The notes under the pieces were generated by a model. It searched no databases. It was not told where the DNA came from and saw nothing but the letters and a program-made list of their open reading frames with translations. A DNA stretch of 64,000 nucleotides from Eledone cirrhosa (lineage: Eukaryota), in contig CAXHJY010000872.1 in NCBI GenBank assembly GCA_964016885.1, positions 11,692-75,691 on the forward strand. The letters are read 5' to 3'. Every line of letters begins with the position of its first letter. The first letter of the stretch is position 1. Shown here in pieces: positions 5,077 to 8,677 of this stretch. A program made the translations under genes and the position numbers.

Positions 5077-5119
<43 letters not shown>

Positions 5120-5126
<7 letters not shown>

Positions 5127-5492
5127 TACACGGGTGTGTATGATTGTGTACAGAAGATTATATAAATAAAAATAATTCCAACTTTTCTGATTTACCTCGT
5201 TTTATTTACATTCATTTAAAATTATAATATTATAATGAAATAGTATGGTGGAATATTAAATGTTAAATGTTAATTGAACAAGTACTTTCAAGCTTTCGTA
5301 ATCTTCAGGTTCATATTCTCTGCTGACAGTCAAGTTTGCAATGAACCTCAAGATTGCGAAAGCATGAAAGTACTTGTTCAATTAACATCGAACATTAAAT
5401 ATTTTACCATACTATTTCATTATAATATCATTATACTTTTAAAGATTGTAAATAAAACGAGTAAATCAGACAAAGTTGGAATTCCTTTTATT

Positions 5493-5495
<3 letters not shown>
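5120..5495. repeat. Long imperfect inverted repeat (centre ~5330) between TA tracts; homologue at 24360-24580
   Basis: TGTTAATTGAACAAGTACTTTCA ... TGAAAGTACTTGTTCAATTAACA and outer arms. Confidence 0.75.
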
Positions 5496-6013
<518 letters not shown>

Positions 6014-6305
6014 AAAAACAAATAAAGAAACGAAATTAAATTTCGTTTCATTTGTAACTCACTTTTGTATGACTGACGCTTAAACAATTAAGTTAAAGAT
6101 GTACATCCATATATGTATACTGAAATACTAGTATGTATATGAATACACACACGTATACATATGTAGATGTACCAAGTTTTTTCACTGGTCACTTTACTGT
6201 GAGTGGCAGCTATTCTGTATGTAAACACACAGACAAACCGTTTTTAGAGTCATACTGGTTTTTGAGGAAACACCTTTCCTCTATTCTCCAGAAAGCCAGA
6301 CAAGG

Positions 6306-6350
6306 AATATTGAACTAGTTTCGTTGTTGTTACAACTCATCAGCAATATT
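6306..6350 (-). ncRNA. Type I hammerhead ribozyme (family A)
   Basis: Reverse complement of the motif at 7106-7150. Confidence 0.9.
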
Positions 6351-7105
6351 TACCTATCTTCCGGCCTCTCTAGAGAATCGTAAAAGCACATATCGTTATA
6401 TGCTTTTTCTATGAAAATTAGTAGTGGGCAGACTAATTTGCATAGAGTGTGAGTAAGTACCGGTTCAACGGAGACGATAAAAACAAATAACGAAACGAAA
6501 TTAAATTTCGTTTCATTTGTAACTCACTTTTGTATGACTGACGCTTAAACAATTAAGTTAAAGATGTACATCCATATATGTATACTGAAATACTAGTATG
6601 TATATGAATACACACACGTATACATATGTAGATGTACCAAGTTTTTTTCACTGGTCACTTTACTGTGAGTGGCCAGCTAATTCTGTATGTAAACACAACA
6701 GACAAACCGGTTTTTAGAGTCATACTGGTTTTTGAGGAAACACCTTTCCTCTATTCTCCAGAAAGCCAGACAACAATAGCTGGCCACTCACAGTAAAGTG
6801 ACCAGTGAAAAAACTTGGTACATCTACATATGTATACGTGTGTGTATTCATATACATACTAGTATTTCAGTATACATATATGGATGTACATCTTTAACTT
6901 AATTGTTTAAGCGTCAGTCATACAAAAGTGAGTTACAAATGAAACGAAATTTAATTTCGTTTCGTTATTTGTTTTTATCGTCTCCGTTGAACCGGGTACT
7001 TACTCACACTCTATGCAAATTAGTCTGCCCACTACTAATTTTCATAGAAAAAGCATATAACGATATGTGCTTTTACGATTCTCTAGAGAGGCCGGAAGAT
7101 AGGTA

Positions 7106-7150
7106 AATATTGCTGATGAGTTGTAACAACAACGAAACTAGTTCAATATT
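7106..7150 (+). ncRNA. Type I hammerhead ribozyme (family A)
   Basis: AATATTG-CTGATGA-GTTGT aaca ACAAC-GAAA-CTAG-TT-CAATATT: 7-bp stem I, 5-bp stem II, palindromic stem III, GUU triplet. Confidence 0.92.
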
Positions 7151-7572
7151 CCTTGTCTGGCTTTCTGGAGAATAGAGGAAAGGTGTTTCCTCAAAAACCA
7201 GTATGACTCTAAAAACCGGTTTGTCTGTGTGTTTACATACAGAATAGCTGGCCACTCACAGTAAAGTGACCAGTGAAAAAACTTGGTACATCTACATATG
7301 TATACGTGTGTGTATTCATATACATACTAGTATTTCAGTATACATATATGGATGTACATCTTTAACTTAATTGTTTAAGCGTCAGTCATACAAAAGTGAG
7401 TTACAAATGAAACGAAATTTAATTTCGTTTCGTTATTTGTTTTTATCGTCTCCGTTGAACCGGTACTTACTCACACTCTATGCAAATTAGTCTGCCCACT
7501 ACTAATTTTCATAGAAAAAGCATATAACGATATGTGCTTTTACGATTCTCTAGAGAGGCCGGAAGATAGGTA

Positions 7573-7617
7573 AATATTGCTGATGAGTTGTAACAACAAC
7601 GAAACTAGTTCAATATT
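7573..7617 (+). ncRNA. Type I hammerhead ribozyme (family A)
   Basis: Identical motif. Confidence 0.92.
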
Positions 7618-8039
7618 CCTTGTCTGGCTTCTGGAGAATAGAGGAAAGGTGTTTCCTCAAAAACCAGTATGACTCTAAAAACCGGTTTGTCTGTGTGTTT
7701 ACATACAGAATAGCTGGCCACTCACAGTAAAGTGACCAGTGAAAAAACTTGGTACATCTACATATGTATACGTGTGTGTATTCATATACATACTAGTATT
7801 TCAGTATACATATATGGATGTACATCTTTAACTTAATTGTTTAAGCGTCAGTCACTACAAAAGTGAGTTACAAATGAAACGAAATTTAATTTCGTTTCGT
7901 TATTTGTTTTTATCGTCTCCGTTGAACCGGTACTTACTCACACTCTATGCAAATTAGTCTGCCCACTACTAATTTTCATAGAAAAAGCATATAACGATAT
8001 GTGCTTTTACGATTCTCTAGAGAGGCCGGAAGATAGGTA

Positions 8040-8084
8040 AATATTGCTGATGAGTTGTAACAACAACGAAACTAGTTCAATATC
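8040..8084 (+). ncRNA. Type I hammerhead ribozyme (family A)
   Basis: Same motif, stem I 6 bp. Confidence 0.9.
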
Positions 8085-8321
8085 CCTTGTCTGGCTTTCT
8101 GGAGAATAGAGGAAAGGTGTTTCCTCAAAACCAGTATGACTCTAAAAACCGGTTTGTCTGTGTGTTTACATACAGAATAGCTGGCCACTCACAGTAAGTG
8201 ACCAGTGAAAAAACTTGGTACATCTACATATGTTATACGTGTGTGTATTCATATACATACTAGTATTTCAGTATACATATATGGATGTACATCTTTAACT
8301 TAATTGCATATATATATACAT

Positions 8322-8655
8322 ATTGTTTTTTCCGTTCATTGCCAGAGAACGTCTCCACGAACCACCTAATAGAATATTAGTCTACGACTTCAGTTATACC
8401 ATAAACGTGGTTTCGTCTTTGCGTGTAATTGTTTTCACCGGTCCAAATAATGACGTATTATATTCGTTTTTCGTTCTTTGCCAGGGAACGTTTCCACGAA
8501 CCAAAGTATCGTCTTCCTGTCTTCCTTCGGTTGCCACGTTTTTCGAAATATTTACTTCTGCGATCACAGATTGATTTTGTTAGTTTCAGAAGATCCTCCC
8601 GTTAAAGGTGAACGCAGCGATTCTTTGCTTAAACTTTAATCTGTTATTTTAATAA
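8322..8655 (+). mobile_element. Dispersed repeat (second copy 50073-50350) with degenerate HHR near its 3' end
   Basis: Clear similarity between copies; AGTTT-CAGAAGA..GAAC-GCA..TGC-TT-AAACT at ~8582-8636. Confidence 0.6.
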
Positions 8656-8677
8656 ATACATACATACACATACACAT

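What the first reader, a model, noticed from the sequence alone, without database searches (positions are those of the whole stretch)
6014..8306. 467-bp tandem retrozyme-like repeat with a perfect hammerhead in each unit
Seen: near-identical ~467-bp units, each carrying AATATTG-CTGATGA-GTTGTaacaACAAC-GAAA-CTAG-TT-CAATATT, plus strong internal hairpins (6818-6889, 6935-6972, 7049-7074) and no credible ORF. Known: tandem type I HHR repeats (newt satellite 2, Schistosoma Sm-alpha, metazoan non-LTR retrozymes) self-cleave to monomers that can circularise, and palindromic stem III (ACTAGT) favours dimeric cleavage. Inference: a young retrozyme family giving ~467-nt linear or circular RNA, possibly undescribed in this lineage.
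Basis: partly seen in the sequence, partly recalled or inferred. Interest (0 to 1): 0.92.

Follow-up and report, generated by a model that had tools for sequence, protein, structure and literature searches.

The report
Hammerhead retrozyme with Penelope-type inverted insertions
A 467-base non-coding repeat that carries a self-cutting RNA motif has been pasted thousands of times into TA microsatellites of an animal genome, mostly as two back-to-back arrays with fixed outer ends, a footprint suggesting that a Penelope-type retrotransposon copies one small, probably circular, RNA from both sides of the cut at once, although neither cutting nor the circle has been shown.

Summary
The repeat and hammerheads are real, but the locus is not one tandem array. 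6012-6773 holds 1.6 units on the minus strand, joined 5'-to-5' to 3.3 units on the plus strand (6775-8306). The genome holds about 9,560 such hammerhead cores. Of 83 insertions mapped, 60 are inverted in this way. Their outer ends fall at two fixed monomer positions (about 229-235 and 303): one of each in 53, the same twice in 1. Most lie in (TA)n. This is the known footprint of Penelope-like elements (inverted 5'-truncated copy, 'tail' at one end), and young Neptune-type elements with their own tails occur in the genome. Units of both arms share the locus's haplotype; at 2 of 5 loci tested it occurs nowhere else in the assembly. 5' truncations ignore the cleavage site. Best reading: a non-LTR retrozyme, cleaved as a double hammerhead (the predicted minimum-energy fold), inserted by twin-primed, rolling-circle reverse transcription of one monomer. 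Against this: some older arrays show block duplications, no partner was identified by sequence, and there are no RNA data. A known class, but with genomic evidence for a mobilisation step that was only hypothesised in the papers read.

The parts
6012..6773 (-). Inverted arm: 1.63 units, 5'-truncated at monomer position 10; its outer (RNA 3') end at 6012 is monomer position 303, the tail-bearing end ('T')
   Evidence: monomer position 1 = window 7144
6775..8306 (+). Direct arm: 3.28 units, 5'-truncated at monomer position 100; its outer end at 8306 is monomer position 230, the tail-less end ('S')
6773..6775 (.). 5'-to-5' junction of the two arms, one extra base at 6774
7144..7610 (+). One monomer, cleavage site to cleavage site (467 nt, about 35% GC); the predicted linear or circular RNA
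   Evidence: RNA itself not observed
7095..7166 (+). Type I hammerhead 1: 7-bp stem I with bulged extension, core 7113-7119, stem II 7120-7133, palindromic stem III, predicted cleavage after 7143 (GUU)
7562..7633 (+). Hammerhead 2, predicted cleavage after 7610
8029..8100 (+). Hammerhead 3, predicted cleavage after 8077; one change at the outer end of stem I
6290..6361 (-). Hammerhead of the inverted arm, predicted cleavage between 6313 and 6312
7373..7446 (+). Present at the left end of the insertion (about 6012-6085), absent from the right end
   Evidence: start-site role is inference from PMC11167929
5494..6011 (.). (TA)n microsatellite, left target flank
8307..8324 (.). Short TA-rich right flank; a 16-nt stretch recurs a few bases left of the left end (possible target-site duplication, uncertain because it lies in a TA run)

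Best explanation
A non-autonomous, non-coding retroelement (animal non-LTR retrozyme) moved in trans by a Penelope-like element (PLE). Steps: (1) arrays are transcribed [inferred]; (2) neighbouring hammerheads pair through the palindromic stem III and cut out 467-nt monomers, which cannot re-form stem III alone and are probably ligated into circles [fold computed, activity and ligation inferred from other retrozymes]; (3) a PLE RT-GIY-YIG protein, probably a dimer, binds one RNA around the 70-nt tail and nicks both strands of a TA-rich target roughly 12-16 nt apart [inferred from flanks and duplications]; (4) each nick primes reverse transcription, one at monomer position about 229-235 and the other at 303 [positions and one-of-each pairing shown; priming inferred]; (5) each RT runs round the same monomer for a random distance, through the cleavage junction, giving two multi-unit cDNAs [shared haplotypes and random 5' ends shown; circular or end-juxtaposed template inferred]; (6) the two cDNA ends are joined by microhomology, leaving a 5'-to-5' inverted array [junctions shown]. 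Old long arrays may later grow by DNA-level duplication. PLE mobilisation about 0.9; single-monomer rolling template about 0.6.
For: Architecture: 60 of 83 mapped insertions are 5'-to-5' inverted; 53 have one S and one T end, 1 has S/S, none T/T, 6 have one end elsewhere; all 23 single-arm insertions end at S or T (binomial p 3e-15 for 53 of 54). The rule holds in the best-hit set (25 of 28) and in two position-ordered sets (14 of 16, 14 of 16), including subfamilies at 88% identity. A 61%-identical 429-nt family ends at the homologous positions. An independent run shows loose TA ends at monomer 233 and 303 (run X1, places 7843 and 7913; X1 may be the source sample). TA run within 20 nt on the left in 50 and on the right in 47 of 53; clean 12-16 nt duplications at L046, L048, L053, L153, L187, L200. 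34 of 58 junctions overlap by 1-25 nt. PLE precedent: inverted 5'-truncated copy, tail at one end, (TA)n bias (PMC8557442); two RT start sites bounding the tail, both strands cut and extended, predicted dimer (PMC11167929). RT + GIY-YIG PLEs with the CX4CX2C linker, their own two ends and TA flanks are in this genome, one family with many 775-aa open frames at 98-100% identity. One template: differences per unit 0.64 within an arm, 0.96 between arms, 3.80 between loci; 10 of 12 loci have the same haplotype in both arms, permutation p 1e-5; own arm nearest or tied in 42 of 47; 17 of 20 loci with 3 or more units have no shared internal variant, and L198 has 18 identical units over both arms. The L049 double variant occurs 10 times in the genome, all in that locus, both arms; the C4b pair of variants co-occurs only there, in 16-17 units of both arms. 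142 5' ends are uniform over the monomer (KS p 0.89), 6 near the cleavage site against 6.4 expected; 1 of 226 cleavage-site crossings is altered. Neither arm is systematically the shorter (S longer in 20, T in 29 of 52), so neither is a fold-back copy of the other.
Against: No RNA, cleavage or circle was observed. No PLE sampled shares significant sequence with the retrozyme, so the partner is unidentified; Naiad-type PLEs also target TA (PMC8557442) and none was recognised among my hits. 3 of 5 haplotypes tested genome-wide are shared by several loci (69, 190 and 336 matches) and could come from linear read-through of a uniform parent. 3 of 20 young loci (C451, L037, L060) and two long sister arrays (14 and 29 units) carry variants in repeating blocks, and one array has a 6-unit higher-order period: DNA-level expansion or multimeric templates occur. 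A linear RNA read by both RTs also gives arms of one haplotype. The assembly may lack the parent of a 'private' haplotype, and consensus polishing could homogenise near-identical units. In the anole PLE, hammerhead mutants did not affect insertion and uncut RNA was the main substrate (PMC11167929). 8 of 9 Xenopus elements did not cleave in vitro (preprint). U17 extends the palindromic helix to an A14-U17 pair in the dimer fold, which may slow cleavage. Duplications are unreadable in most TA targets (23 of 53 against 19% in shuffled pairs, many spurious).
Confidence: 0.62

Rival explanations
1. PLE-mobilised by twin priming, but the template is an uncut linear multimeric transcript of a parent array; the hammerhead is dispensable or acts later.
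For: Explains paired ends, uniform 5' ends, clean junctions and shared arm haplotypes equally well. Parents of 30 or more units exist. 3 of 5 haplotypes have several loci. Mixed arrays C451, L037, L060. Uncut RNA is the main substrate of the anole PLE in vitro.
Against: Cannot create a new variant in every unit: L049 and C4b haplotypes have no parent in the assembly, and 15 distinct uniform-type haplotypes occur in 35 loci. The core is invariant with compensatory change and persists in the 61%-identical family, as expected if cleavage is needed.
Confidence: 0.22
2. Short PLE-type insertions (about 1-2 units per arm) that later grow by unequal crossover or slippage, the satellite model of Li, Clavereau and Pollet (preprint 10.64898/2026.07.22.740005).
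For: Block patterns in long sister arrays and C451; 6-unit higher-order repeat; in position-ordered sets median arms are only about 470-630 nt and both arms exceed one unit in 8 of 28.
Against: Long arrays occur in the youngest copies with no internal variation (L198, C4b, L055, C253); both arms would have to expand separately before any mutation; variants fixed across a locus have a different spectrum from single-unit variants (AT-to-GC against GC-to-AT transitions 42:13 and 49:62, p 1e-4), though selection on the RNA or mis-polarisation could cause this.
Confidence: 0.12
3. Not an RNA-intermediate element: a satellite or foldback DNA element, or assembly artefacts, with an inactive hammerhead-like motif.
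For: No expression data; Rfam scores below gathering cut-off; the window is on an unplaced contig.
Against: Fixed 3' ends with random 5' ends, strand-specific fold (circle -149 against -124 kcal/mol for the minus strand), target duplications, the same structure on many chromosomes and in three sequence groups, and matching ends in sequencing-run contigs.
Confidence: 0.04

Closest known systems
Metazoan non-LTR retrozymes (Cervera and de la Pena 2020, PMC7229834; seen: abstract, passages, sections 14 and 17)
   Same: Tandem non-coding units with a type I hammerhead, low GC, no LTR; the paper hypothesises circRNA templates giving tandem cDNA and names PLEs as likely helper.
   Different: Unit 467 nt against about 170-400; 'inverted', 'microsatellite', 'rolling' and 'octopus' do not occur in its main text; here most insertions are two divergent arrays with fixed paired ends; RNA not shown here. 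Its supplements were not seen.
EN+ Penelope-like elements, Neptune/Naiad type (Craig et al. 2021, PMC8557442; seen: passages)
   Same: Inverted 5'-truncated copy, tail at one end only, partial tandems, (TA)n targets; non-autonomous multicopy PLE derivatives such as MRC1 are known.
   Different: No ORF; tail about 70 nt against 30-40; up to dozens of units per arm; no sequence similarity found to an autonomous family, unlike the non-autonomous Chlamys.
Poseidon PLE of the anole in vitro (Frangieh et al. 2024, PMC11167929; seen: parts 1-2 of 4)
   Same: Internal initiation at two sites that bound the tail; AT-rich target; both strands cut and extended; predicted dimer.
   Different: They saw no difference in start site between strands and no need for the hammerhead; here the two sites are used one each per event (53 of 54) and the ends match the target by a few bases.
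Animal retrozymes as PLE derivatives (Li, Clavereau, Pollet 2026, bioRxiv 10.64898/2026.07.22.740005; seen: parts 1-3 of 5, supplements closed)
   Same: Argues PLE origin and PLE mobilisation.
   Different: Evidence there is co-occurrence and pLTR similarity in Xenopus; it favours local expansion by unequal crossover; 'tail', 'mollus' and 'cephalopod' do not occur, 'inverted' only in a reference.
Newt satellite 2 / axolotl and PLE minimal hammerheads (Cervera and de la Pena 2014, PMC4209133; seen: passages)
   Same: Short palindromic helix III, dimeric active form; circular template for more-than-unit reverse transcription proposed.
   Different: Here stems I and II are of canonical size, with GUU in the youngest subfamily and GUC in sisters.
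L1 twin priming (recalled, not looked up)
   Same: Two target nicks prime two cDNAs that are joined 5'-to-5'.
   Different: In L1 the second priming site is arbitrary and limits the first cDNA; here both sites are fixed and 5' ends do not cluster at them (3 and 8 against 6.4 expected).

Membership tests
Type I hammerhead ribozyme | Conserved core and three helices, open at stem I | tested here: met
   Rfam HH9 alignment over the whole model, E 2.5e-7 but below gathering score; stems I and II pair at 0.63-0.99; stem III only in the dimer fold
Type I hammerhead ribozyme | Core conservation and covariation in relatives | tested here: met
   26 monomers: no core change except C/U17; T-A to A-T in stem II in 13; different stems, same core in the 429-nt family
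Type I hammerhead ribozyme | Self-cleavage | not testable with these tools
   needs in vitro assay
Metazoan non-LTR retrozyme | Tandem units of a few hundred bases, one type I hammerhead each, at least two consecutive | tested here: met
Metazoan non-LTR retrozyme | No coding capacity, GC under 50% | tested here: met
   longest stop-to-stop frame 62 aa; GC 33-35%
Metazoan non-LTR retrozyme | Dispersed copies, duplications longer than 4 bp when present | tested here: met
   many chromosomes; 12-16 nt at six readable targets
Metazoan non-LTR retrozyme | Absence of PBS and PPT | not tested
   no LTR-plus-internal-region layout was seen, but PBS/PPT were not searched
Metazoan non-LTR retrozyme | Expression as linear and circular monomer RNA | not testable with these tools
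   only contigs of runs not on record as RNA were available
Penelope-like element (autonomous) | ORF with PLE RT and GIY-YIG endonuclease | tested here: not met
   no ORF; it is not an autonomous PLE
Non-autonomous PLE derivative | PLE insertion footprint: inverted 5'-truncated copy, tail at one end, microsatellite target | tested here: met
Non-autonomous PLE derivative | Sequence similarity to the pLTR or end of an autonomous family | tested here: inconclusive
   none in 46 GIY-YIG loci nor against three family ends versus shuffles; these are 46 of 150 scored and 10,596 candidate sites
Non-autonomous PLE derivative | Recently active autonomous PLE in the same genome | tested here: met
   131 scored matches at 97-100% protein identity, many in 775-aa open frames; RT and GIY-YIG domains

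The most novel reading that the evidence does not exclude
These insertions are a genomic record of a dimeric Penelope-type RT/endonuclease reverse-transcribing a single ribozyme-made circular RNA with both subunits at once, each primed by one target nick at one of two fixed sites flanking a hairpin, and rolling round the circle by strand displacement. This would explain in one mechanism the inverted repeats, the one-sided tail and the tandem copies of PLEs in general, would be direct evidence that retrozyme circles are transposition intermediates, and might even fix RNA-level changes (a weak excess of A-to-G on the RNA strand) into every unit of a new locus.
Probability: 0.45. Interest if true: 0.85.

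Novelty: new variant of a known kind. Interest (0 to 1): 0.63.

Why it matters
How animal retrozymes move, and how Penelope-like elements make their inverted, one-tailed, tandem insertions, are stated as open in the papers read (PMC7229834 discussion; PMC8557442; PMC11167929; the 2026 preprint). This family gives thousands of recent events with a 467-nt template, two mapped start sites and haplotype markers, next to candidate intact helper proteins. That makes three questions directly testable: PLE as helper, circle against linear template, and coordinated two-site priming. A compact RNA that a telomerase-related RT inserts as multimers into TA repeats could also be of use as a tool.

Tried and rejected
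Expression: no RNA holder listed; four runs laid were contigs of unrecorded kind and say nothing on transcription or circles; a 497-nt contig in run X4 equals unit plus 30 and fits a tandem as well as a circle. Rfam miRNA matches are hairpin noise far below cut-off. Partner search: Pfam PF26215 was not in the library; GIY-YIG search gave five C-terminal-endonuclease families and one other PLE type; none matched the retrozyme; a pyrimidine-rich likeness between the T end and the family-A PLE end was no better than shuffles (174 of 300; 16 of 300 for the 429-nt family). A 69% match beside a PLE (L140) proved to be a separate retrozyme family in the TA flank, not a pLTR. Fold-back copying of the first cDNA rejected (arm lengths). 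Template jumping at cut ends not supported by 5' ends or junction errors, but precise jumping on one molecule cannot be told from a circle. A-to-I editing: fixed variants A>G 28 against T>C 14 (p 0.018), singletons 26 against 23, contrast not significant (p 0.21): a lead only. Covariation outside the hammerhead is weak (2 compensatory, 19 consistent, 13 breaking). One 'convergent' locus (L212) is a hairpin self-match and is counted as single-arm T; L036 is counted as single-arm although one search shows S/T; one locus cut by the fetch was dropped; two loci of the list (one long array) and two were not fetched whole. Literature: no relevant cephalopod paper among 7 listed; searches found no description of inverted retrozyme arrays; one further search gave no answer; Lunse et al. 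(PMC5785218) was not held. Repbase and Dfam could not be searched. Earlier scan findings: none by sequence or place.

Full report
Observation. The window holds a 467-bp repeat at 99% unit identity over 6775-8306. There are four hammerheads, three plus and one minus; Rfam HH9 aligns over its whole length at E 2.5e-7 to 2e-6, below the curated cut-off. The listed hairpins fold as stated and no frame exceeds 62 aa. Numbering below: monomer position 1 is window 7144, the base after the predicted cut.

The ribozyme. Stem I has 7 bp plus a bulged extension, stem II 4-5 bp; the triplet is GUU where the Rfam consensus and some sister subfamilies have GUC. In the monomer circle stems I and II form (0.63-0.99) and stem III does not (0.00). 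For 7095-7633, which spans two hammerheads, the unconstrained minimum-energy fold is the double hammerhead with the palindromes paired, so cutting in tandem transcripts and stability of the monomer are both predicted, as proposed for such motifs in PMC4209133 (passages). In 26 monomers the core changes only at position 17, and stem II shows a compensatory pair in 13. Activity is untested.

The family. The genome has 3.0 Gb in 1,796 contigs; the monomer search scored 39 of 121 candidate regions and gave 278 matches, the 150 listed at 99-100%. Two core patterns match 5,321 and 4,242 times, reversed controls 0. Subfamilies at 88-97% exist, and a 429-nt family, 297 of 483 columns identical, has its own hammerhead.

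Insertion structure. I mapped three sets: the window plus 34 best-hit loci (biased to long young arrays), 20 stretches taken in positional order from the list and 27 from the list. Of 83 complete insertions, 60 are a minus arm joined 5'-to-5' to a plus arm, so both outer ends are RNA 3' ends. These ends fall at S (226-236, mostly 229 and 234) or T (299-305, mostly 303): 53 have one of each, 1 has S/S, none T/T, 6 have one end elsewhere; the 23 single-arm insertions all end at S or T, and 4 of them carry a remnant of 11-30 nt ending at the other site. The window is such a case: T at 6012, S at 8306. The 429-nt family ends at the homologous positions, with six clean pairs among about twelve two-arm loci of 20 examined and the rest irregular. 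Contigs of run X1 have loose TA ends at positions 233 and 303. A TA run lies within 20 nt in 50 (left) and 47 (right) of 53; where the target is readable, duplications of 12-16 nt flank the whole structure, so both arms came in one event. Junctions mostly overlap by a few bases (34 of 58). The 142 5' ends are uniform over the monomer, with no excess at the cleavage site or at S or T.

What this resembles. PLE insertions often carry an inverted 5'-truncated copy and a 30-40 bp tail at one end, and some clades favour (TA)n (PMC8557442, passages). A purified anole PLE cuts and extends both strands and starts at two internal sites that bound the tail (PMC11167929). This genome has PLEs with RT, a CX4CX2C linker and C-terminal GIY-YIG (Neptune-type by the motif described in PMC8557442). 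Their copies also show two alternative ends in TA, with tails of roughly 35-65 nt, and one inverted copy has the tail on one arm only. One family is young, with many 775-aa open frames at 98-100% identity. None shares significant sequence with the retrozyme, so the helper is inferred from the footprint, not identified.

The template. Among 167 full units, mean differences are 0.64 within an arm, 0.96 between the arms of a locus and 3.80 between loci; 10 of 12 loci have one haplotype in both arms (p 1e-5); 17 of 20 loci have no variant shared by a subset of units; L198 has 18 identical units. In 47 loci the partner arm is strictly nearest in 25, tied in 17, not nearest in 5. So both arms copy one template. 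To separate a monomer from a uniform parent I counted markers genome-wide. The L049 double variant has 10 matches, all in that locus and in both arms. The two C4b variants have 21 and 86 matches, and only that locus is in both lists. The markers of L198, L201 and L060 are shared by several loci. Two of five therefore point to a single-unit bottleneck at the event; three are uninformative. Against a pure circle model: C451, L037, L060 and two long sister arrays have block patterns, one array has a 6-unit period, and position-ordered arms are short (medians about 470-630 nt). Fixed variants differ in spectrum from single-unit ones (p 1e-4), which fits an origin at the RNA or RT step but also selection.

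Mechanism. Most likely a PLE protein dimer binds one RNA at the tail, nicks both target strands, primes once at S and once at T, and each subunit copies round a circular (or end-juxtaposed) monomer until it falls off; repair joins the two cDNAs. The strict pairing is hard to explain with two independent RNAs, and neither arm is a copy of the other. Shown: ends, pairing, targets, junctions, haplotypes. Inferred: transcription, cleavage, ligation, helper, dimer, strand displacement.

Novelty and verdict. The class is known (PMC7229834), PLE help and circular templates were hypothesised there and in PMC4209133, and PLE origin is argued in the 2026 preprint, which favours later expansion by unequal crossover. 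In those texts and in searches I found no account of inverted, one-tailed retrozyme arrays, of one-of-each use of the two start sites, or of haplotype evidence for a monomer template; supplements and repeat databases were not seen, and subscription papers are missing from the library. An earlier scan note (e1-7810660, unchecked) describes a similar PLE-pattern repeat without a ribozyme. Interest 0.63.

Noticed in passing
window 5104-5555: A small inverted remnant of the end of PLE family C (84-87% to L143), tail on the left arm only: the same architecture in miniature, directly beside the TA run that the retrozyme entered. Another piece at 24341-24578.
   Followed up: partly
window 8321-8660: A further dispersed repeat of about 335 bp (87-89% to copies in L150, L064, L133, L098), often next to TA runs and PLE ends; one more piece at 50263-50350; identity not worked out.
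   Followed up: partly
window 32628-32833: Fragment of the 429-nt sister retrozyme family (86%), next to a TA array.
   Followed up: partly
window 30833-31050: Inverted end remnant of PLE family B (94-98%) beside a long TA array.
   Followed up: no
window 15082-17840, 33833-35286 and 39211-39945, minus strand: Broken LINE-type reverse transcriptase fragments (RVT_1, zf-RVT); no host gene was recognised in the window.
   Followed up: partly
L129 (pLTR), also L083, L134, L138, L140: The young Neptune-type PLE has a hammerhead-like motif with U3 and A8 in place of C3 and G8, a palindromic stem III and GUA triplet, about 75 and 140 nt upstream of its two ends; found only after relaxing the core pattern; activity unknown.
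   Followed up: partly
L198 (G000:C1:30830700-30842000) and six other loci: A sub-lineage marked by three A-to-G changes within six bases of one stem, fixed in all units; 69 copies at 7 loci. Could be captured A-to-I editing; the genome-wide test was weak.
   Followed up: partly
G000:C1:95663266-95679723: Array with a higher-order period of about 2,817 bp (6 units): a marker recurs in 2 of every 6 units.
   Followed up: no
runs X4, X5, X6: Near-identical sequence in runs labelled as three other organisms, including a sister-type monomer in X4; relatives, mixed samples or transfer cannot be told apart.
   Followed up: no
L139: A different PLE type (frameshifted RT, C-terminal GIY-YIG) flanked by inverted ends, with a hammerhead-free retrozyme fragment showing S and T ends inserted in its TA flank.
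   Followed up: partly
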